From: the human T2T-CHM13v2.0 reference genome, Homo sapiens
Assembly: GCF_009914755.1 (NCBI RefSeq)
Contig: NC_060947.1
Strand: one strand, 5' to 3'
DNA: 64,000 nucleotides
The notes under the pieces: model-generated
Told to the model about the DNA's origin: nothing
The model's database searches: none
The model's input: only the letters and a program-made list of their open reading frames with translations
Part shown: one piece after another, positions 706-60,051 of the stretch
Layout: every line of letters starts with the position of its first letter
Numbering within the stretch: position 1 is the first letter of the stretch
Translations under genes and position numbers: made by a program

Positions 706-3452
706 AGCTGGACCAAAGATGGCTGACTAGAAGCAGTGAGGACTCTTGGCTCTCATGGAGAGAAATGAAAGGGGCAAGTAAATACAGCAACTTCAACTGA
801 AACATTCATGTTCTCACATTGAGACTGATCAGGGAAAGAGCTCAACCCATGCAGAAAGGAGAAAAGCAAAGCAGGGCGACAGCCCACTAGGAAAGGACAT
901 GGAGCCAAGGGAACCTCTCCCTGCCCAGGCAAACAGTGAATGAATATGTGACCCCTAGCAACCGCACTTCTTCCATGGACCTTTGCAACTCTTGGGTCAG
1001 GAGATCCCCTCATGAATCCACTCCACCAAGACTTGGTCTGACACACAAAGCTGCATGAAGTCTCTGCTAAGCAACTGCCCAGGGGTGCACAGAGTCCCAG
1101 GAGCTTTACATACTCTGGCCCCAGGATCCCTGGTCAGGGTGATTGCAACTCAGGCCAAGTGGGAGGTTGAACCTCCATATACACCCCTAGGAGGGGAGCT
1201 GAAGCCCAGAGGCCAAGTAGCATTGCCCTGTGATTCCCACTTCCTTGGCACCTCACAGGATAAGACCCACTGGTTTGGATTTCCAGCAAGCCCCCTGTTA
1301 ATGGTGTTGTGCCTACCTGGGATAGGATAGAGTTCCCAGGGGAAGGAGCAAGCCGCTATCTTTTCTGTTTGGACAACTCAGCCATTCCAGCATGTGGGTG
1401 TAGGAGAGTCCAAACCACACCAACTGAGAACTGATGGGACCTCCCAGCACAGCACAGCTGCTCTACCAAAACATGGCCAGACTGCTTCTTTAAGTGGGAC
1501 CTGATCCATTCCTCATCTTAGGGCAGGGCCTCCCAACCAAGGCCTCCAGCCAACCCCACCCATATTCTCTGGCAGACAGAGTTTTGATTTCTCCTTGGGA
1601 TGGAGTGCCGAGGGGTAGGGACGAGCCACCATCTTTGCTGTTTGGACAACTCAGTCATTCCAGCCTCTTGGCTTAGGAGAGTTCAAACCATCTGAGGGCA
1701 GAAGTGGTACCCCAGCATGACACAACTGCTCTACAAAAGCGTGGCAAGACCGCTTCTTTAAGCAGGTCCCTGATCTGTTCCTCCTCACTTGGGAGAACTT
1801 CCCAACCAGGGTCTTCAGCCTCTCCCACTGATGTTCTCTGGTTGACAAGGGTTTGAAAGCATCCTGGGACAGAGTTACTAGAGAGAGGGGCAGGCTGCCA
1901 TCTTTGCTGTTTCTGCAATTTAGCCGTTCCAGCTTTCAGGTTTTGGAGAACCCAACACCATGAGGGGCAGAAATGGTATCCCAGCACAGCTCAGCTGTTC
2001 TACAAAAGTGGGGCTAGACTGCTTCTTCAAGCAGGTCCCTGATCCTGTTTCTACTGGCTGGGTGAGACCTCTCAACCAGGGTCTCCATCCACCTCCTACA
2101 GGTGTGTTCAGGCTGGCAACAGATTTGTACACCCCTGGGACAGAGCTCCAAGAAGAAGGGGCAGGCTGCCATCTTTGCTGTTTCACAGCCTTAACTGATG
2201 ATACCTGTAGGTACTAGAAATTCTGAGGTGACTATGTTCTGGAATGGATGCCCAGCAAACCATAGTATCACTACGGTAAAGTGGTGAGACTGTTAAAAAG
2301 GAACCCTCCCTTCAAAAACTCCATCCAGAGGCCAGCAACCCCAAAGATTGAAGGTAGATAAGCCCACAAAGATGAAAAAGAATCAGTGCAAGAATGTGGA
2401 AAACTCAAAAAGCCAGAGTGCCCTCTCTCCTCCAAATGACCACATCACCTCTCCAGAAAGGGTTCAGAATGGGGTTAAGGCTGACATGGCTGAAATGACA
2501 GAAGTAGACCTCAGAATATGGATAAAAATGAACTTCGCTGAGCTAAAGGAGCAAGTTCTAACTCAATGCAAGGGAGCTAAAAATCACAATAAAACATTGC
2601 AGGAGCTGACAAAATAGCCAGGATAGAGAAAAGCATAACCAATCTGATGGAGCTGAAAAACACAATACAAGAAATTCATAATGCATTTATATGTATTAAT
2701 AGCAGAATAAACCAAGTGGAGGAAAGAATCTCAGAGCTTAAAGACTGTCTTTCTGAAATAAGACAGGCAGACAAGGATAGAGAAAAAAAGAATGAAAAGG
2801 AATAAACAAAACCTCTGACAAATATGGTATTATGTAAAGAGACCGATTCTATGACTGTTTGGTCATAGATGTTTTCCAAAATATGTTTTCCAAATTGGTT
2901 CTGCTCTCCCCTGAAAGAGCTGGGGAGAATGGAACCAATTTGGAAAACATATTTCAGGATATCATCCATAAGAACTTCCCCAACCATGCTAGACAGGCCA
3001 ACATTCAAATTCAGGAAATGCAGAGAACCCCAGTAAAATATTTCATGAGAAGATTATCCCCAAGACACATAATTATCAGATTGTCCAAAATTGAAATGAA
3101 ATAAAAAAATGTTAAGGGCAGCCAGAGAGAAAGGCCAGGTCACTTACAAAGGGAAGCCCATCAGACTAATGCATTGAGAAGCAGACTTCTCAGTGGAAAC
3201 CCTACAAGCCAGAAGACATTGGGGGTCAATATTTAACATTCTTAAAGAAAATCAATTCCAGCCCACAATTTCATATCTGGCCAAACCAAGCTTCATAAGT
3301 GAAGGAGAAATAAAATCCTTTTCAGACAAGCAAATGCTGAGGAAATTCACTGCCATCAGACCTGCATTACAAGAGCTCCTTAAGGAATAATAGAAGTGGC
3401 ATCAGAATGATCAGAATGTGGATAAATATGGAAAGGAAAAACCACTACCAGC
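706..3452 (+). mobile_element. Second L1 (5'UTR + ORF1 only) nested in the host L1 5'UTR
   Basis: New L1 start (aagatggctgactagaagcag) at ~716; repeated 5'UTR units (gccatctttgctgttt); ORF1 remnants 2348-3390. Flanked by catcaaggaaacaa (692-705) and catcaagaaaataa (3453-3466). Confidence 0.8.
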
Positions 3453-26825: not shown

Positions 26826-28006
26826 AGAAGCTACAATTCTTGCATCCCATATTCCTGTTGAGAAGTTTGAGTTTAATCTGATTCTTGTTCCTTTGGAGAT
26901 GAGCTTTTTTTTTCTTTAGCTAGCTTTTACATTTTTTCTCTTTCTTTTTAATGTACTTAAATTTTACTACAATGTGTTCAGATGTTTTTCTTTATGTCCC
27001 TATTGAGCACTTTGATCGCTATTCATCTGTGGTCTCTTTTCTAGATTCCAGGAAAATGTTTCCTCGTTATTTATTATAATAATTTCTCCTTTTTGCCTCT
27101 TATTTTAATACTCCTATTATCTGAGAAAATCAGTCTGTCTAATACGGAGGATAGAAGTGTGAGAAGCTATATTAGGAAACATTAGTCTAGGTGAGAGTTG
27201 ATGAGGGCCTGACCTATGCATAATGGTGGGGCATGGATGAGAGTGACAGTGGATGTAAGGGAATTATGAGGAGAGAGAAGGAGAATAAGGAGAGGATCAG
27301 TCTATGTGCTGTATGCTTGGACCACTGGGAGTTTGAGAGGACCATTAAAGAACACAAAAGTCTGAAAGCAGTGCCAATGATGGGGATAGAAGAGGACTTG
27401 TGAAGCCTTTGAATATACTTTTATTTCCATCCCAGCTTGACAGAACTGTCCGGAGCCAGTTTCAATGACATTATGTGGCTGAGAACTGGGAATCCTGGAT
27501 TTACTCCTCTGTGCCCAACACTCTTCTATTCTGTGGAAAAGGCAAACATAGTTTGATCACTGCAAGTCTGAATTCTCCTATGCTAAATGTGTTTCCCACT
27601 TCCAACCAACCACTCTACCAATTATATAACCATTCTTTACCTCACCCCTGTGCACTTCTTTTTATTCCCCAAAGTACTGTTATACACAACCCCTCATTAT
27701 CACTTCTTATCAGTAATTATCCTCATTACACAGATGAAGAGCAGAGGCATGAAGAAATAAAGTTTCCTATCCAAGATCACACAACACATTAGTTATTATG
27801 TTGAATCTTCAGCCACATCCTAGCTGAGTATGTTTATCTCACATGTCCCTATTTAAAATAAAATATACATCACCAAGTTGGCCAGCAAATACTGGCTAAT
27901 ATGTCATTGAGCCCATACTCTGTGCCAGGGGTCCTGTAGTAGCTCTTAAATGTATTACATCATTTAATCCTTGCAATAGTCCTAGATAGTAGTATTAATA
28001 TCCTCA

Positions 28007-31380
<3,374 letters not shown>

Positions 31381-32155
31381 TATCCATAATAAAATTATAG
31401 AGTCTGGACTACTGGTTTTCAGACCTGGCTCTGCCACTAGAATTAAAATGTGCTATGTGACCCTGGGCCTTCTTCCTCTTCTGTAAGATGCAGATTTTGA
31501 ACCAACTGGACACTATGGTCTCTTCTAGCAACTAGCCTGTAGTCAAACTGAACAATGGCCATTTCCTACCTGAAACCAAAGTGCCATTCTTGAAGCTGTG
31601 GAAACCATTCTGGAAATACCTGTGGTCTACACACTTTATGGGGTAGGGTGGGTGGGGGACACTGGATGCAGAGCAGCTACTCCAAACTTAGCCCCTTTCT
31701 CTCTCTTACCTACTTTCTAGTCATGCATGCTTCCAGTTCCAGTCCGTAGAAGGATGAAATGGGCCGGCCTCACCCCTATAGAAGAAGCCAGGTTCTACTA
31801 GGGAGCCAGTAGGCATCTGGCACAACAGAAAGGCAGAAAAAGAAGCAAGCCAGCTCCACCAGTATGCCGTTCCATGGTACCCTAAGCCAGGTTCAGGCCC
31901 TGCAGCCCTGTGTGGTCCACTTGCCTACCCAACCACAACTGGTGAGATTCTTTGCTAGCTAGCACCCAACAGTTCCAAAAGGATGCCCAGGATTCAGAGT
32001 GAGTTGGATACTCCCTTTGCCCATTTAAAATGGACCCTTAAAGACCCTTACATACTCTAGCAAGAGAATGGGTTTTTAACCTCTCTAAGGGTCCTTATGG
32101 TCTGAGGTTTTAAATTGCTGAGAAGGCCACCATCAGATAGCAGAGCGGAGCATGT

Positions 32156-33824
32156 CAAACCTTGCATTGCAGGCATTGACTTGTGCTCTTTCTTGCTCCA
32201 TTGCCTGAGCAGATGCCTGTGAGGGTTCCCTGGCTGGTTCCATCTATCAACTCAACTTGGAGGAGAAGGCTTTTTGGTGCCTCAGACCCATCTCTGTGGA
32301 TGAGCTGGACATGATTGACTTGACCTGCAGAATGACAGAAACGTGAGTGTTTGTGGTTCAGTGCTGGCTGGCTTGATTCCTTGGGGCATGCAATAGGTTC
32401 TGATGGTGACAGTGCTGTGGTGACTGGCATAGCCTGTACATTTGTTGGCTCAGGCTGCTTTTCAGGTGGCTTGGGCTGTGGCTTGGTTGGCTCACCCAGT
32501 TTATGCTGTTCCTGCTCTACTCCTCAGTTGGTTTGGCCTGAGCGTCAGTCACCTCAGCTGGTATCTTAGATACTTCGGTCTGCAGCTCAGCATGCTCTCT
32601 GGTCTGCTCTTCAGCTGACTTAGCCTGTGCCTGGCCCAGCTCAGTCTATACCTCACTGAGTTCACCCTGAATCTTATGGGGGTTCAGCCTGCTTCTTTGC
32701 CTGGACTTCAGTCAGCTCCACCTGTGCCTCTGCCTGATTCTTACATGGCTCAACTTCCTTCCTGAGTGGTTGAGCCTGCTTGTTGGCTGGTATGGCCTGT
32801 TCCTCATATGGCTCAGCTTGTTCCTTGGCTGGTTCAGCCTGTGCCTCAGCCTGCTTTTTATCAGGCTTGGCCTGCTTTTTGGCTTGTTGAGTCTGTACTT
32901 TAGCTGGCTTGACGTGTGTCTCAGCCTGTTCCTTGGATGCCTTGGCCAGTGCCTCAGTTTGCACCTGGGATGGTACAGACCGTACTTACACCCTGGATAA
33001 CTTGGCTTGTGCCTCAGCCTGTTTATTGGCATTTTGGGATTGCTTCTTGGCTAATTTGACCTGTTCTGCTACCTGGTCTTTAGCTGGTTCCTGGGCTGGT
33101 TTGATCTGTTATCCAGCAGATTCTGTTTGCTTCTTTGGCAGTTTCCACCTGTGCCTCAGGCTACCCCTGGGCCTGCTGCTCAGCTGCTTTGGCCTGTGAC
33201 TTAGGCTGCTTATCAGCTAGCTGGGCTTGTTTCTCAGCTACGTTGGCCTGCTCCTTGGCTACTTCAGTCTGTTCCTCAACCTGCACCTCCCATAGTTTGA
33301 CCCATAACTCAGTGGGTTCAGCCTGCACCTTGACTGGCTTGGCCTGTGACTCAGCTGGTTCAACAAGTGCCGGGGCTAGTTTGACCTTTGCCTTGGGTGA
33401 GTTCACCTGTACCTCAGTCAGTTCAGACAGCACCAGAGCCAGCTTGACTTTTGCCTTAGGTGACTTAGCCTGTACCTCAACTGGTTCGGTTAGTGCCAGG
33501 GCCATATTGGCTTTTGCATTGGCCTTTGTCTTAGCTTTGTGGTTAGCTTGGTTAGCTTGAACTGCATCTGGGCCAGCGTGGCTTTTGCCTCAACTGGTTC
33601 AACCTGTGCTTCCATAGGCTCAGCTTGTGCATTGGCCATCTCCTGGGCAAGTTCAGTCTGCATCTCTGCTGGCTGAGCCTGCTTCTTGATCTCCTGGGCT
33701 GGCTTGACCTGTGCCTCTGTCTGGGTGGGCGGGGCCTCCACTTTAGTGTCCTTCTGGGCCTCTGCTTCTTTGTCTTCCTCCTCCCGAAGCTGAAACTCAT
33801 GAAATCCTTTGATGGTCTTCAGCA
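32156..33824 (-). pseudogene. Candidate exon with Gln/Ala/Lys/Glu/Pro heptad repeats (degraded)
   Basis: Acceptor cttcatttgcag| at 33825-33826; ORF pieces 33490-33825, 33161-33505, 32674-32964 with 7-aa periodicity (KQAEAQA EPAKEQA EPYEEQA IPANKQA), separated by frameshifts. Confidence 0.72.
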
Positions 33825-35529: not shown

Positions 35530-38283
35530 TGGCCTTCCCATGGGGTACTGGTGAAGGCTGAGGGATTTCTAGGAACCATGGGGAAGGGCCAAATGCAGTG
35601 GGAAGAGGAAATTATAAAAGTAGAGAAGTGAGGGAGCTTCTGGGAGAGAGGGCTAGAACTCACTTTGAGTATAGACATGGGTATGAGGGAAGAGGATGGG
35701 TCCAGTGGGAGAGGCCCTGGTATTGCAGCTTGAACCTGTGTTTGTACTGTCTCTTTGTGCTCTTTTGCCAGTCTTCCCATCACAGGGTAGGCATCTTGCT
35801 AGTAGTTCCCAGGCATTTTCAGTGGATGCCTGTCCCAGAAAAGATAAATGGTAAGAGCACATTGACAGCAAATGCAGAGCCACCTAGAGCCCAGATGGGT
35901 CCTTTTAAATTATTAACTCTTGCGGTAACCCACAGAACAGGGGTGGAGAGTCTTTTGGGCCAGGTTGAGTACTCACTTTGGGGTTGACCAATGCAGGGAG
36001 GGAGGTGCAGAAGGCCTTAGGATTTGAGCCTACGCTGCCAGTGATCCTTGGCTGTTCTTCAGGAATATATACAGTGGAATGTATGGCCTTCACTGGCTGG
36101 GAGAAACAGGAGGAAGGGCTAACAGTGGTTAGTTTGCTTTTTGTTGGGCCCACAGAGGACCAGGATTCTTTGTGTTTGATAGACCCAGTAAATCTAGTGA
36201 CTGGAATTCTAGCCTCATCTCTCTACCCATCCACTGTTTTGATGGCTGTAGGAACAATGTATGTCCCCAATTTATTTAGCCCTCTCTTCTCTCTGGCTTT
36301 TCTTGCCACTGCTGGCTTCTTACCTCGTATCCCATATCCCAATAACTTGGCCTCCCATGCTCTCAGGAAAGAGCTAGATACCCCAATACCTTTTCTGTGG
36401 GCTCTCACACTTGGTTACACCCGGGGCATCCCTTATGGGAGGATTTTAGGTGAAGGAGATTCAAGAAGCTCTATGTCCTTTCTTATACTATTATTTCCCA
36501 CACTATGAGGATATCTTTTGCCTCATCCCTGTCACCTCCTTTACTTACCGAAATCCCCCAACACTCTGGATTCTGCAAACGCGCTTCTGACCTCTCCCTC
36601 TATGGGTAAAACAGAAATTAAGAATCTTTTTCCTACCCTATGCCCCAAGTTCAAATACCCCCGGAGAGATCAACATCCCTTCTGTGAGAAACTTCCAGTT
36701 ATGGAGGAGGCTGTTTTGCTGGTGCTGTCTGGCTCTAAAACCAGAAGCTATAAGGAGGAAGCAGTGAGATCTCAGTAGATTCTGGAATACCTCAAAGGAG
36801 GTCTAGTTCTGGGATGAAGATCCCAACTGAGGTGGCATCCCAACTGAACCATACACCAATGTCATTGCTACTTCTGACTTATTCTCTGTACCACCTCAAT
36901 CCCTCCTTCCATAGCCCTCCTTCCTCCTTCCTATCAGATGATAATTTCCTTGATAAGAGCCTTGAGCTTCACTGAAGGTTTTGGCCACCTGACATCTTAG
37001 GGTTTCACTTGTACTGGACTGGGTTAAGTATCACGTGACTCTCCAAAACAGTGATGGGAGCAGGTAATTACTTAAATAAGAAAAGGCCCACCTGCTGAAG
37101 GCACTTTTGACCCCATTTCTGTGGACATCAGCATGATAAATACTGTTGAGGATGGCTTGATCTGCCACTTTTAGCTCAGAAGCTTATGACCATGTTGTAT
37201 AAGTGGTATCCATAGGCTCCAGAGGTCTATGCTGCCCATAGAACATCACGTCATCTAGGCGTGAGTAGTTCTTCAGGGAGTCTGAGGATTAGTTCTAACC
37301 TTCCCTTTCTTGGGGATCAGATAGCATGTGATGTGAATGTGGTTAGGCCCTTCCTTGTTCCGACTCCTATTTCAAACATCTTGCTTTGATTAATTTTTTA
37401 GCCATTTCCAGGTAGATTTTTCTGCTGCTTTCTGGGGAGTCCTTCTTGGCTTTGAAGGGTGGCTAGTCAGCTACAGTCAGGTGACTTGATTACAGAAGCC
37501 CTTGAAGGGCATTATTTTGCTTCCCCTCTGCTTCTATTTAGTGGATGCTTGGGTGCTCAGCATCCTCTAGAATGCTGTAGGCTCCTCCCTGTCACCATTC
37601 CTGCCCTCTTCAATTTCCTCAGGACATAGTTGTAGCTTCATATGTGGGTAGGTACTGGGGGCAGTAGTGATCCCTGACTCCTCTAAGATGGATGACATGC
37701 TTGGCAGTGTTGAAGGGATCGGAAATGAGGTAGACATGCTCAACTTGAAGAGCAGGGTTAGCACAGTCAGAGGGATGAAGTAAGATGGCTTAGACCACTA
37801 GGAAAAGGCATGCTCCAGAGGGTTAACATAGAAGGCAAAAAGGGGGCTGAAGCAGTGGAGATGCTGGTGGGTAATGCTGCCACCTCTGTGTATGTCCCCA
37901 GAGACCTAACATGGGCCACCTTCTGAAGACAGTGGGGCTCCAAGCCCTTGCCTAGGAACTTGGGGTGCTAGAGTGGTAGCCATAGGAGCAACCATATGGA
38001 AGGTGTCTGGAGTGCAGGTGAGGGTGGCATCAGAGATAGAGGGGTAGACAATGGGATTTTGCCAGGATTAGGGGTACTGGGCTCAGTGGCATAGTGGGTA
38101 ATCATCTGCTACTCAAGCATCAGGTCCTGCTCAGATTGCTAAGGAAGCCTCCAAGCACCACAATCTCTGTCTCTGCTGGGATCCTGCATGTCCATTCCTA
38201 CCATGGCCTCTGCTTTGTGGCCTAGATCTACCTCTCAGAGCTAAGTAAAGCCCATAAGTCTTGACATAGGATATGGCCCATGT
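35530..38283 (-). pseudogene. Candidate large Ser/Pro/Thr-rich exon (degraded)
   Basis: Strong acceptor cttccccagtccctcctccccctag| at 38284-38285; ~2.7 kb with no recognisable repeats; serial minus-strand S/P/T-rich ORF pieces (37567-37764; 36223-36408 and 35905-36153 in the same frame; 35523-35783). 3' boundary uncertain. Confidence 0.6.
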
Positions 38284-40149: not shown

Positions 40150-40267
40150 ATGGCATATCTTCAGCACAGCTGGCATTTACAGCCTGTGTTTTCAGTAACA
40201 GCAGAAGGGTATATTCTCCAAAGATTTCAGGAGTATTTTCAATCAGGAACTGAACCAGTTGGGTAAC
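40150..40267 (-). pseudogene. RhoGAP exon 4 (118 nt, open)
   Basis: ctctcag| VTQLVQFLIENTPEIFGEYTLLLLLKTQAVNASCAEDMP |GTAAGA vs VSLLIQFLIENCLRIFGEEITSL. Confidence 0.92.
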
Positions 40268-40976: not shown

Positions 40977-41166
40977 CTTGCCTATATTCTGGCTCTCATC
41001 TTCTGGTCTTTTGCAGTTGGATAACCATAGCAAGTTGGGTGCAACACACAGGGCTAGGTTGAAAGCTATTATCTGGTTTGCCTCAGAGTTGGCCACAATG
41101 TGGCTCAGGATACCAAAGAGGTACTTTAGCAGCAGGCATTTGCCTTCTGGAAGCTGCACTACTGGT
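40977..41166 (-). pseudogene. RhoGAP exon 3 (190 nt, open)
   Basis: caag| PVVQLPEGKCLLLKYLFGILSHIVANSEANQIIAFNLALCVAPNLLWLSNCKRPEDESQNIGK |GTAAAG vs LLDQLPRANVVLLRYLFGVLHNIEQHSSSNQMTAFNLAVCVAPSILW. Confidence 0.95.
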
Positions 41167-41588: not shown

Positions 41589-41696
41589 CTCTGGAGAGAC
41601 TGGACTCTGCTGGCTGGTATGCCCCTCCATGGCTGTCATCCGTTGTCTGTACATGCCTGAGGACAGAATACTGTCAGGAATGCTGCACAGGAATTT
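41589..41696 (-). pseudogene. RhoGAP exon 2
   Basis: tcag| KFLCSIPDSILSSGMYRQRMTAME/fs/RVQSLQR |GTAAGA vs DFLRNIPGSIFSSDLYDHWVSVMD..KINTVQR; 108 nt where phase implies 110. Confidence 0.92.
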
Positions 41697-42010: not shown

Positions 42011-42172
42011 AGTCAAGACAGATGCAGCCACAAACAATGACTCTCTAACCATGGACACCTGGGCCCCAGAATTCGGTTTCTCCTTTATCTCCTTGCAAGT
42101 CTTGGCACTGGCTGAGTGGCGGAAGATGCCAGCAGTGGTTGGGCCCTCCTTGTATGACAGCATCAGCATGTT
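42011..42172 (-). pseudogene. RhoGAP exon 1 (162 nt, open, arginine finger GIFR)
   Basis: ccaag| NMLMLSYKEGPTTAGIFRHSASAKTCKEIKEKPNSGAQVSMVRESLFVAASVLT |GTAAGT vs DMLFFLNQKGPLTKGIFRQSANVKSCRELKEKLNSGVEVHLDCESIFVIASVLK; 54 codons in both. Confidence 0.95.
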
Positions 42173-42760: not shown

Positions 42761-42939
42761 CATGATAAGCCTGGGCAGGTGGCTTGTTTGGTACAGTGTA
42801 GACAGATCCAGGCCAAAGAGCTTATGATAATTCTCTTCCTGTGGTGAATATACCATGGAACTTTCTAAGGGTAAGGTAGGGTTTCTCTGCAGGGTCCAGT
42901 ACAGCAGGGACTTTCTTTTTCTTTAGTCTTTTCTTCACT
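42761..42939 (-). pseudogene. Pre-GAP exon
   Basis: E*RKD*RKRKSLLYWTLQR...KLFGLDLSTLYQTSHLPRLIM vs KRRRSIINWAFWR...QLFGISLPNICENDNLPKPVL; two stops; donor reads ATAAAT instead of GTAAAT. Confidence 0.85.
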
Positions 42940-43112
42940 CTAAGTTTTGTGAGTAGAAGTTGGGCGAGATGAAGTTAGGACACAGAGAGTTGGCAGTCCC
43001 CCAAAATACACCGGAAGAGTTAGATGGCAGTGAGAGGGATACTAGGAGTAGGGGAGCACTGTGGGGACAGAGGCAGAGGCTGGGAACACCAAGGTAAGAA
43101 GAGCAGGGAGGG

Positions 43113-43994: not shown

Positions 43995-44171
43995 CTCTCT
44001 CCAATACACTGGGTAGTTTGCTCTTGTGCTTCAAAATAAATTTAAATTGCTTGTCCTCAGGCACCTGACTCAGAGATGTGGGGTCAAGGTAGCCCTGAGT
44101 GGTCCTGGAGGTGATTGGCTGGGGCACATGGCACAGGTTTGTTTGGGCAATGTTGTATGAGCTCTCATGGC
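43995..44171 (-). pseudogene. RA-domain exon 3 (177 nt, open)
   Basis: ttttcctttctag| HESSYNIAQTNL...SQVPEDKQFKFILKHKSKLPSVLER |GTAAGG vs HEYPYGIKMSHL...EQLPREMQCQFILKP; phase 1-1. Confidence 0.85.
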
Positions 44172-45169: not shown

Positions 45170-51274
<6,105 letters not shown>

Positions 51275-51712
51275 CACATTTCACTTTCTTAAACCAACAC
51301 TTCCCAATTCACTCGGCCACTGAACAACCCCCTTTTCCCTACAAAATGACAATGAACAGAAACCCATTCTTTGAAAGTTGGCTTAGGAAACACTGCTTTT
51401 AAGTAACAATACTATTCAATAAGTCCTTTGGATATGTCTTTCCAATCCCTGCTGCTAAGATATAAATCCAGTTCTCTTTGTCTTGAATTTGCCTTCTTAG
51501 TCTATCAAATACCCACTGAGTAAATCACAGATCTCTCTGTATTTCCAGAGTCCTCTGTAACTCCTGTGGCCTCCCCTTCCTGATCTCCTCTCCCATGTTT
51601 AAACCAGTGATCCTTGCAGCTAGGGGCACACTGAACATAGATCCCAAGATGCTGAGATCCTCAGGCCAAAATGGAGCCTATTTCAAGCCCTCATAGAACT
51701 CAGGAACCTTAC

Positions 51713-51778
51713 TAATGAGTGGGTAAGACAGGCCTCTTTTGATGAATTCACCCGTAGCAAAAAATCACAGGATTGGCC
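51713..51778 (-). pseudogene. RA-domain exon 2
   Basis: ctttccttag| GQSCDFLLRVNSSKEA/fs/SYPLI |GTAAGG vs GSERDYQLWVNSGKEEAPYPLI; 66 nt, 1-nt deletion. Confidence 0.87.
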
Positions 51779-54426: not shown

Positions 54427-54504
54427 AGAAAGTCCCAGCTGATGCACTGCCCTCCCAATGATCTTCTCAGAAGTCCCAGTATTGGTCACAGTTATTAGAA
54501 TAGT
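54427..54504 (-). pseudogene. RA-domain exon 1 (78 nt, open)
   Basis: tttacccag| TILITVTNTGTSEKIIGRAVHQLGLS |GTAAGT vs SKTITVMNSDTANEVINMSLPMLGIT; same 26 codons. Confidence 0.85.
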
Positions 54505-55056: not shown

Positions 55057-55139
55057 TGAGGTAAGTTCATTGACCTCCATCAGCAGAATCCTGAGTCATG
55101 TTCTTTGGACAATGATTCTGCTTCTGCTCTTGGATATTA
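55057..55139 (-). pseudogene. PH-RA linker exon
   Basis: acag| NIQEQKQNHCPKNMT/fs/LRILLMEVNELTS |GTGAGT vs YINLEKEKDYPKSIPLKIFAKDIGNCAY; 83 nt, 2-nt deletion. Confidence 0.78.
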
Positions 55140-56062: not shown

Positions 56063-56104
56063 CAGCACAGAGCAGGAAACCAGCAATTCTTGTTTTTTCA
56101 GGAA
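56063..56104 (-). pseudogene. PH-domain exon 3 (42 nt)
   Basis: S*KNKNCWFPALC |GTAAGT vs SPEQKDKWLSLLQ; same length and phase 2-2; acceptor reads AT instead of AG; internal TGA. Confidence 0.7.
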
Positions 56105-57262: not shown

Positions 57263-57408
57263 CAGAAGACGACCACAATGTTGGTTGTATGCCAACTGAT
57301 CATGAAACAGGTGTCTGCACAGATCTCCTTCACTGTCTCTTCTCCTAGGCAGGAGGCAAACCACACCTCACTCAGACGCACCGCTTCTTAAGTTTCAGGT
57401 TGGTGGAC
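57263..57408 (-). pseudogene. PH-domain exon 2
   Basis: cctag| STNLKLKK/fs/VRLSEVWFASCLGEETVKEICADTCFMISWHTTNIVVVF |GTAAGG vs YNNNFKIKNKIKLTDMWTASCVDEVGEGNTNAMKSFVLGWPTVNFVATF; 146 nt, 1-nt deletion. Confidence 0.88.
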
Positions 57409-57796: not shown

Positions 57797-58014
57797 TTAG
57801 GCTTGGCAATAATGGTACGATTCTCAACAATGACAAGAGTATCATTATTCTCAACAATGATACTCTTATCATTGTTGAGAATAAGGCGTCTTCACTGGAT
57901 CTGTGTACCATTGTTCAGTTCAGTCTCATCATCCGTGACGAAGGTGGACTGGGCCCATGGAGAGTTCCCATCAGAGCCGCATTGTCTGGCTAACTGGCCT
58001 CCCAGAGTTGGTCC
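57797..58014 (-). pseudogene. PH-domain exon 1
   Basis: ctctcccag| ...TFVTDDETELNNGTQIQ*RRLILNND[insertion]IIAKPK |GTAGGA vs ARHGAP20 TLLIDGRAELKRGLQRQERHLFLFNDLFVVAKIK; internal TGA. Confidence 0.75.
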
Positions 58015-59478: not shown

Positions 59479-60051
59479 CTGGAGATACAGTATGACTGGT
59501 TGAGGACCAAAATAGTGGACTGCTGTTTGCCACTCTCACTCCCACTGGAACTCAGACACCCACTGGAACTCAGACTCCCAAATGTGCTCAGGCTCAAGCT
59601 CCTGAAGGTGTTCAAGCCTTCATTGACACTCAGCTATGATTGACACTGATGTCTTCATTGAAGATCATAGTATTGGCTGCACTTGCAGTTTTGCTGCCAG
59701 TCTCAATTCTGCAGGTGCCCACCCCTTCACTGACGCTCATGTCTGCATTGGTGCTTGCTTCTATGCTGGCATTGTTGATGTTGCTGCTGCTTGTGTTCTC
59801 AATGGCTACTATGATTTCACTAGCAATGGAGTTTCCACTAGTATTTATGATCTTAGAGCTGCTTGGGCCACTGACACTCCTGGTATCACTGCAGTTGCTG
59901 GTGCTACTGTCACTCTTAGTATGATAACTTCTTATGGCACTACTGCCACTTTGAAAGTGTTTTATGGTCAGCTTAATTTTCTGTGGGAGAATGAGGCCTT
60001 TAGGCAGGAACCTGGTAGCTCTCCTGCCACCCCTTTGATGCCTTCCATGTC
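59479..60051 (-). pseudogene. Candidate first coding exon: Ser/Thr/Asn-rich 6-aa repeats
   Basis: GACATGG in strong Kozak context at 60048 after tag|; ORF 59630-60145 (..NTSSSN INNASI EASTNA DMSVSE..); 18-nt tandem unit at ~59540-59578; donor CAG|GTGAGT at 59479. Frameshifted. Confidence 0.55.

What the first reader, a model, noticed from the sequence alone, without database searches (positions are those of the whole stretch)
32430..33824. Heptad (21-nt) repeat exon with a 63-nt higher-order unit downstream of the RhoGAP domain
Seen: about 1.4 kb of degenerate 21-nt periodicity, reading on minus as Q/A/K/E/P heptads, with a 21-aa super-repeat (LALTEPVEVQAKSPKAKVK / LVLSELTEVQVNSPKAKVK, ~33330-33500) and a good phase-1 acceptor. 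Frameshifts break it into pieces. Known: I recall no such tail in ARHGAP20 or TAGAP. Inference: the lost protein had a lineage-specific rod or spacer module, a style often seen in fast-evolving germ-cell proteins. Frequent prolines argue against a perfect coiled coil. It could also belong to a separate neighbouring gene.
Basis: partly seen in the sequence, partly recalled or inferred. Interest (0 to 1): 0.7.

Follow-up and report, generated by a model that had tools for sequence, protein, structure and literature searches.

The report
Dead RhoGAP gene with swapped tail
This repeat is the last exon of a broken, unannotated human X-chromosome gene for a cell-signalling enzyme (likely ARHGAP20B) whose predicted protein is still open in rabbit and pocket gopher, and it likely replaced the older tail used by birds, reptiles and platypus, whose decayed remains lie just upstream.

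Summary
Lag-21 identity is 0.435 against 0.273 in shuffles, the best in the window; the 63-nt unit is real but local (33338-33517). The repeat is exon 14 (33824-32085, minus) of a 14-exon PH-RA-RhoGAP pseudogene spanning 59980-32085, with no row in the RefSeq table supplied. Predicted rabbit and pocket gopher proteins read from the GAP domain straight into this exon with an open frame (56% and 46% identical to the relic). The tree and chicken gene order (MSN-FDX1B-ARHGAP20B) point to ARHGAP20B, an ancient ARHGAP20 paralogue. Non-eutherian relatives end instead in a Ser-rich tail with a PDZ-type terminus. A decayed copy of that tail lies at about 38.2-36.8 kb (score 162; shuffles at most 63, though two cruder tests were not significant). 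So the gene likely gained a new last exon, dropped the old one, and later died in the human lineage (12 frameshifts, 8 stops, 3 splice sites). The tail looks like a mostly disordered ~575-aa spacer kept for length and open frame, not a coiled coil. Expression, including any germ-cell role, is untested.

The parts
32085..33824 (-). Exon 14, terminal coding exon: about 580 codons of heptad repeat (consensus Q-[AVT]-[EK]-P/A-A-[KEQ]-[EA]) with unique ends; 5 frameshifts (near 33543, 33136, 32676, 32520, 32166) and 5 stops (33163, 33111, 32988, 32648, 32135)
33338..33517 (-). Local 63-nt (21-aa) Lys-rich/aliphatic block; 3 units in human, 4 in rabbit and gopher
36842..38256 (-). Fossil of the ancestral Ser-rich terminal exon (collinear remnants of the PVARQSSCDA, LDSAFS.CSES, KITFY, FYGQ..PL and LPAS.R..VR.YF motifs); ends approximate, true acceptor not identified
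   Evidence: (161.8 against shuffle max 62.6), controls; searches agree; not significant
40150..40267 (-). Exon 13, end of the GAP domain; phase-1 donor
40977..41166 (-). Exon 12, RhoGAP
   Evidence: (PF00620, E 2.9e-9)
41589..41696 (-). Exon 11, RhoGAP; frameshift near 41606
42011..42172 (-). Exon 10, RhoGAP with the GIFR arginine-finger motif retained
42761..42946 (-). Exon 9; acceptor reads AA, donor reads AT, one frameshift
43995..44171 (-). Exon 8, end of the RA domain and linker
51713..51778 (-). Exon 7, RA domain; frameshift
54427..54504 (-). Exon 6, RA domain
55057..55139 (-). Exon 5; frameshift
56063..56104 (-). Exon 4, end of the PH domain; acceptor reads AT, one stop (boundary inferred from the protein)
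57263..57408 (-). Exon 3, PH domain; frameshift
57797..58014 (-). Exon 2, PH start; two stops, one frameshift, 16-codon in-frame insertion
59479..59980 (-). Exon 1, Ser/Thr/Asn-rich N-terminus; codon aligned to the gopher start Met reads ATT; frameshift
31301..31337 (-). Three AATAAA hexamers about 750 nt past the stop; candidate poly(A) site (inference)

Best explanation
The heptad repeat is the last coding exon of a broken 14-exon PH-RA-RhoGAP gene on human Xq, likely the orthologue of chicken ARHGAP20B, and it likely replaced the gene's ancestral Ser-rich last exon, whose fossil lies about 3 kb upstream. Shown: the exon model, the lesions, the phase match between exon 13 and exon 14, the open joined frame in the rabbit and gopher predicted proteins, the tree position and the fossil tail. 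Inferred history: after the split from monotremes and before primates and Glires parted, a new exon with a phase-1 acceptor arose downstream and grew by 21-nt duplications. It would first have been an alternative last exon; the old exon then decayed, and the whole gene died later, probably early in primate evolution. Inferred mechanism in species that keep it: as for ARHGAP20, a Rap-type GTPase would engage the RA domain and the GAP would switch off RhoA. The new ~575-aa tail would act as a mostly disordered spacer or tether, selected for open frame, length and composition more than for sequence. Its Lys-rich 21-aa block is the likeliest binding patch for an acidic surface such as microtubules or membrane, in place of the lost PDZ-type C-terminus. 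In humans the locus almost certainly makes no protein.
For: The exon start hits a rabbit 'rho GTPase-activating protein 20-like' protein, 62% identical, E 2e-17, which maps collinearly over 57.5-32.1 kb. The gopher protein has the same tail, E 5e-90, and maps from 59977. All 13 introns fit with consistent phases, and 23 of 26 splice sites are canonical. Tree: human, rabbit and gopher form a clade at 100/100 inside a shark-to-platypus ARHGAP20-like clade at 100/100; grouping them with ARHGAP20 proper is rejected, p-AU 0.0009. Chicken chr4 order is LAS1L-MSN-FDX1B-ARHGAP20B-HSF3-EDA2R-AR (PMC12681815, two passages), and MSN is the nearest coding gene before this window (annotation given). Fossil tail: 161.8 against 49.5 +/- 6.8 in 60 shuffles (max 62.6) and 67.7 for the best unrelated tile of 100; ARHGAP20-type tail profile 50.8, reversed profile 58.0, reversed DNA 42.1. 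111 of 114 non-eutherian relatives end in [ST]-x-[VIL] and 114 of 114 carry FYGQ; rabbit and gopher have neither. Tail lengths are 572, 577 and 580 codons, while rabbit-gopher p-distance is 0.51 in the tail against 0.12 in the core. FoldIndex is below 0 in 82-86% of tail windows against 14-19% in the core.
Against: The rabbit and gopher entries are predicted models; I saw no transcript support, and their position next to MSN was not checked. The rabbit model starts in what is intron 2 here and lacks a third of the PH domain, so it may be mis-modelled or damaged. Only 2 eutherian orthologues appeared, which used length limits and capped candidate lists. Two of five fossil tests were not significant (54.8, shuffle max 54.8; chain 16.7 against 13.5 +/- 2.9), nor was the platypus query; the decisive test was designed after I had seen the candidate. 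The fossil's higher lesion load (18 stops, 5 frameshifts in about 470 codons, counted from the alignment) may be inflated by unseen frameshifts, so the order 'old exon died first' is not proven. Nothing tests the tail's binding role; the Ser-Pro sites of the 21-aa block are not kept in gopher.
Confidence: 0.75

Rival explanations
1. Added, not swapped: species with a live gene keep both last exons as alternatives, and both died together in the primate line.
For: The two exons lie in tandem behind the same phase-1 donor. The rabbit cluster has 4 member sequences that I could not see. The core shows a long stem branch (0.7), so fast pre-loss change could explain the fossil's divergence.
Against: No eutherian protein with this core and the Ser-rich tail appeared among the best 120 of 477 hits. 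Stops in the fossil alignment are about 3.8% of codons, against about 0.9% in exon 14 and 0.4% in the core.
Confidence: 0.12
2. The tail is a Pro-kinked alanine-rich helical rod (Ala at heptad positions 2 and 5, spaced 3 and 4 like a/d) that dimerises the GAP.
For: Protein lags 4, 7, 11, 14 and 18 are enriched (rabbit lag 7 z 9.1; gopher 4.7); Ala and Val dominate position 2; Pro-free stretches reach 41-45 aa.
Against: 7-8% Pro. The best Pro-free 28-mers have only 4 of 8 a/d positions L/I/V/M. FoldIndex is negative. The lags follow from the DNA repeat itself.
Confidence: 0.15
3. The exon belongs to a separate neighbouring gene that gene predictors fused to the RhoGAP in two species.
For: Both joined proteins are predictions, and no transcript was seen.
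Against: Two separate genome annotations join at the same point. The phases match. The exon begins at an acceptor, not at a start codon. Exon 14 and the core show decay of similar order on the human branch.
Confidence: 0.05
4. It is a non-coding minisatellite whose reading as protein is accidental, and the rabbit and gopher models are of dying pseudogenes.
For: The tail diverges fast (p-distance 0.51), and the rabbit model is 5'-short.
Against: Frames of 572 and 577 codons are open in both species, while the human copy took 10 lesions (crude chance of none at that rate 5e-5). The core is 88% identical between rabbit and gopher.
Confidence: 0.03

Closest known systems
ARHGAP20B (chicken chr4, next to MSN and FDX1B) and the 'ARHGAP20-like' proteins of birds, reptiles, amphibians, fish and monotremes
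   Same: PH-RA-RhoGAP core, 51-56% identical to rabbit; same tree clade; position next to MSN; fossil of its tail in the window.
   Different: Their Ser-rich tail with an E-[ST]-F-V end is absent from the rabbit and gopher proteins and is replaced by the heptad tail. The gopher N-terminus is also about 140 aa longer. That these database proteins are the gene named ARHGAP20B is inferred from tree and position; none carried that label.
ARHGAP20 (RA-RhoGAP, human 11q), described as a RhoA-specific GAP downstream of Rap1 that associates with microtubules, ER, Golgi and vesicles (PMC13419509: start of abstract and passages seen)
   Same: Same three domains and GIFR motif; its exons are hit on chr11 at 45-51%.
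   Different: Separate clade (p-AU 0.0009); its type of tail matches neither the heptad exon nor the fossil. The mammalian ARHGAP20-type protein P0013 is unnamed and was identified from my recall of its ends.
TAGAP (6q25, next to EZR; synteny recalled)
   Same: Related RhoGAP domain. Recalled pairs RDX-FDX1-ARHGAP20, EZR-TAGAP and MSN-FDX1B-ARHGAP20B suggest an origin in the vertebrate genome duplications.
   Different: More distant; no match to the heptad tail among the fetched proteins.
Ala/Lys/Glu/Pro repeat tails such as neurofilament-H KSP repeats, the histone H1 tail and cylicins (recalled resemblance)
   Same: Low-complexity, charged, Pro-containing repeats; KSPKAK occurs in human and rabbit.
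   Different: No Pfam match over its cut-off; no second copy of the exon found in the human genome; KSP not conserved in gopher.

Membership tests
ARHGAP20B orthologue | PH (PF22286)-RA-RhoGAP architecture | tested here: met
   Rabbit and gopher; human exons
ARHGAP20B orthologue | Groups with the non-mammalian ARHGAP20-like clade, not with ARHGAP20 | tested here: met
   100/100; p-AU 0.0009 against ARHGAP20 proper (LG+G4, long stem branch)
ARHGAP20B orthologue | Lies next to MSN in the X / chicken-4 block | tested here: met
   Supplied annotation and PMC12681815 table; rabbit and gopher positions not seen
ARHGAP20B orthologue | Ser-rich tail with FYGQ motif and PDZ-type end | tested here: inconclusive
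   Absent from the rabbit and gopher proteins, present as a fossil in the human DNA: this is the variant feature
Active RhoGAP | Arginine-finger motif GIFR | tested here: met
   114 of 114 relatives, rabbit and gopher; human relic
Active RhoGAP | GAP activity on RhoA and Rap1 binding | not testable with these tools
   Inferred from ARHGAP20 only
Unitary (unprocessed) pseudogene | Intron-exon structure with disabling lesions | tested here: met
   14 exons; 12 frameshifts, 8 stops, 3 splice sites, start codon
Unitary (unprocessed) pseudogene | No intact copy elsewhere in the human genome | tested here: met
   Searches found the tail only at this locus (both searches can miss weak matches)
Canonical coiled coil | Hydrophobic a/d positions over 4 or more Pro-free heptads | tested here: not met
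   Best window 4 of 8 L/I/V/M; 7-8% Pro
Canonical coiled coil | Confident helical model | tested here: inconclusive
   AlphaFold2 with 2 sequences: mean pLDDT 32, core also unresolved
Higher-order tandem repeat (63 = 3 x 21 across the array) | Lag-63 excess throughout | tested here: not met
   Only in 33520-33140
Germ-cell-specific fast-evolving protein | Testis or germ-cell expression | not testable with these tools
   No expression data; the listing showed no title on this gene

The most novel reading that the evidence does not exclude
An undescribed, roughly 450-million-year-old ARHGAP20 ohnologue on the mammalian X underwent a complete last-exon swap: it traded a PDZ-ended tail conserved from shark to platypus for a newly built heptad spacer of fixed length (~575 aa) that retargeted the enzyme, perhaps to a germ-cell cytoskeletal structure. 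It was then lost in primates and possibly most placental lineages, surviving in a few Glires. The human locus preserves both the old and the new tail as fossils in order.
Probability: 0.35. Interest if true: 0.72.

Novelty: new variant of a known kind. Interest (0 to 1): 0.55.

Why it matters
It adds a likely unannotated unitary pseudogene to the human X and fills the gap beside MSN in the recalled ERM-RhoGAP paralogon. It is a readable case of terminal-exon replacement, with the old and the new exon side by side. It gives a testable question in a laboratory animal, the rabbit: what does a RhoGAP gain by trading a PDZ-type end for a length-conserved repeat tail? There is no evidence of any function in humans.

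Tried and rejected
AlphaFold2 on the rabbit protein with a 2-sequence alignment gave pLDDT 32 throughout, so it is uninformative and no fold search was run. Pfam on the tail ORFs gave nothing over cut-off. The high-scoring reindeer, fox, seal and dog hits are tandem-GAP proteins without the tail; the dog one groups with ARHGAP20, so they were rejected as orthologues. P0109 has a strong heptad signal from an unrelated repeat, with no tail match. Fossil-tail tests that did not beat controls: profile DP, block chain, platypus pairwise. A search for an FDX1B relic was too insensitive to interpret, as it reported no chr11 or X hit at all. Stops first seen in exon 9 were an artefact of my boundary and vanished after correction. 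The ESM Atlas and earlier findings gave no results. Ten literature searches (listings only, except passages of PMC12681815 and PMC13419509) turned up no description of this human locus or of the tail. The library omits most subscription papers, I opened no supplements, and GENCODE and TOGA tables, which may list it, were not available.

Full report
1. Observation. In 32430-33824 the lag-21 identity is 0.435 against 0.273 +/- 0.011 in base shuffles, and this is the strongest such window in the 64 kb. The signal survives codon shuffling in all five pieces tested (z 2.3-5.7). The 63-nt unit is found by TRF at 33338-33517 (2.9 copies, 70%) and by lag 63 only in that segment. The minus strand reads Q/A/K/E/P heptads in changing frames. 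A pyrimidine tract and CAG precede 33824.

2. What it belongs to. A search with the first 98 codons of the exon returned 1 protein of 177 candidates: a rabbit 'rho GTPase-activating protein 20-like' of 1050 aa, 62% identical, E 2e-17. It maps collinearly on the minus strand from 57.5 kb to 32091, its residues 479-1049 falling on this exon. A search with that tail found one more protein among 7993 scored candidates, from the pocket gopher Thomomys bottae (1258 aa, 45%, E 5e-90), which extends the map to 59977. From these I built a 14-exon model with consistent intron phases; 23 of 26 splice sites are canonical. The last GAP exon ends in phase 1 at 40150 and the repeat exon starts in phase 1 at 33824, and both proteins read through this point. 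The exon ends at a stop at 32087-32085. The frameshift-aware alignment gives 303 of 538 identities to rabbit and 254 of 546 to gopher. The RefSeq table supplied has no row here.

3. State in human. Exons 1-13 carry 7 frameshifts, 3 stops, 3 lost splice sites and ATT at the aligned start. Exon 14 carries 5 frameshifts and 5 stops (6 and 6 under other settings). In the core, the human branch is 0.247 changes per site against 0.069 and 0.062, and 81 of 397 columns shared by rabbit and gopher have changed, about 0.10 nucleotide substitutions per site. With recalled primate neutral rates this suggests death early in primate evolution; this is a rough inference.

4. Which gene. After rabbit (86%), the nearest single-domain relatives of the gopher core are 'ARHGAP20-like' proteins of turtles, birds, lizards, amphibians, coelacanth, gar, shark and monotremes at about 48-57%. 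The tree puts human, rabbit and gopher together (100/100, stem 0.7) within that clade (100/100). Holding them with ARHGAP20 proper is rejected (p-AU 0.0009); holding them with monotremes is not (0.445) (25 rows chosen from 266; a 36-row quick tree agrees). A chicken GWAS table lists ZC4H2, ZC3H12B, LAS1L, MSN, FDX1B, ARHGAP20B, HSF3, EDA2R and AR in order on chr4 (PMC12681815, two passages), and MSN is the nearest coding gene before this window. I therefore read the locus as ARHGAP20B. The parallels RDX-FDX1-ARHGAP20 and EZR-TAGAP are recalled, not tested.

5. The tail swap. Only 2 of 266 fetched proteins match the heptad tail. Of 114 non-eutherian relatives, 114 carry FYGQ, 110 LDSAFS and 111 end in [ST]-x-[VIL], a class I PDZ-type end by established pattern; rabbit and gopher have none of these. 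An HMM of 58 such tails had its two best hits in the window at 37818-37276 (E 5e-4) and 37423-37220. Follow-up was mixed. A plain profile DP (54.8, shuffle max 54.8) and a block chain (16.7 against 13.5 +/- 2.9) did not beat controls, although the FYGQ block ranked 1 of 127,930 positions. Pairwise, turtle scored 76 (shuffles 41 +/- 4, max 49), echidna 74 (42 +/- 4, max 50; a GC-rich tile reached 72), platypus 54 (not significant) and the ARHGAP20-type control 44. A model that allows for codon decay, built from 6 amniote tails, scored 161.8 over 38256-36842, spanning profile position 56 to near the end; 60 shuffles gave 49.5 +/- 6.8 and the best unrelated tile of 100 gave 67.7. Controls gave 50.8 (ARHGAP20-type profile), 58.0 (reversed profile) and 42.1 (reversed DNA). 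The last test was designed after I saw the candidate, but the margin is large. The fossil alignment holds 18 stops and 5 frameshifts in about 470 codons, more than the rest of the gene. This suggests that it died first, but unseen frameshifts would inflate the count.

6. What the tail is. In rabbit and gopher it is 572 and 577 aa (580 codons in human), 45-53% A+E+K+Q, 7-8% Pro, with lag-7 z of 9.1 and 4.7. The 21-aa block has 4 units in both and 3 in human; it is Lys-rich and net positive, and lies after an acidic start. Rabbit-gopher p-distance is 0.51 in the tail against 0.12 in the core. No 28-residue window fits a canonical coiled coil. FoldIndex predicts disorder in 82-86% of windows. AlphaFold was uninformative. 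No other copy of the exon was found in the human genome, so its source is unknown; growth in place from a 21-nt seed is the simplest inference.

7. Likely working. By analogy with ARHGAP20, described as a RhoA-specific GAP downstream of Rap1 that associates with microtubules and endomembranes (PMC13419509; start of abstract and passages), the live protein would turn off RhoA under Rap control. The arginine-finger motif is kept. I infer that the new tail is a flexible spacer under selection for frame and length, with the basic block as its binding patch, replacing PDZ-type anchoring. My confidence is about 0.9 for 'last exon of this pseudogene', about 0.8 for ARHGAP20B and for the swap, and about 0.5 for the spacer and tether role. 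Germ-cell expression is untested.

8. Novelty. Unitary pseudogenes, last-exon replacement and repeat spacers are known kinds, and the gene has a name in chicken. The ten searches listed under Tried and rejected found no description of the human relic, the heptad tail or the swap, within the limits of the library; GENCODE and TOGA tables and paper supplements were not seen. Verdict: a real feature, a new variant of a known kind, interest 0.55.

Noticed in passing
P0001 residues 1-22 against window 57474-57409: The rabbit model's N-terminus aligns to sequence that is intron 2 in my model and covers only PH profile positions 32-93; it may be mis-modelled or 5'-damaged.
   Followed up: partly
window 59980-59479 (exon 1): The gopher protein and the human relic share a Ser/Thr/Asn-rich N-terminal stretch about 140 aa longer than in quail or echidna, so the N-terminus also seems to have expanded in eutherians (seen by eye).
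   Followed up: no
P0152-P0155, P0003: Reindeer, fox, seal and dog carry ARHGAP20-derived proteins with several tandem RhoGAP domains; the dog one groups with mammalian ARHGAP20.
   Followed up: partly
P0109: An unnamed, more distant RhoGAP protein has about 11 perfect copies of an unrelated 7-aa repeat near its C-terminus: an independent heptad expansion in the same family.
   Followed up: partly
L002 (G000:C7:16979623-16980090, minus): An uninterrupted match to rabbit residues 27-182 (37%, two stops) spanning several exons' worth of protein; it looks like a processed ARHGAP20-family pseudogene.
   Followed up: no
window 57870-57820: A short internal duplication adds 16 codons in frame to exon 2 of the relic.
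   Followed up: partly
window 45300-51300 and 28000-31190: LINE-1-like ORFs (recognised from recall) lie in intron 7 and just beyond the candidate poly(A) signals; at about 29.95 kb two pieces meet in opposite orientation.
   Followed up: no
window 1629-2184: A 269-bp tandem duplication, 2.1 copies, 76% matches.
   Followed up: no
between MSN and window 32000: Chicken has FDX1B between MSN and ARHGAP20B; a human relic might lie here, but my family search was too insensitive to tell.
   Followed up: partly
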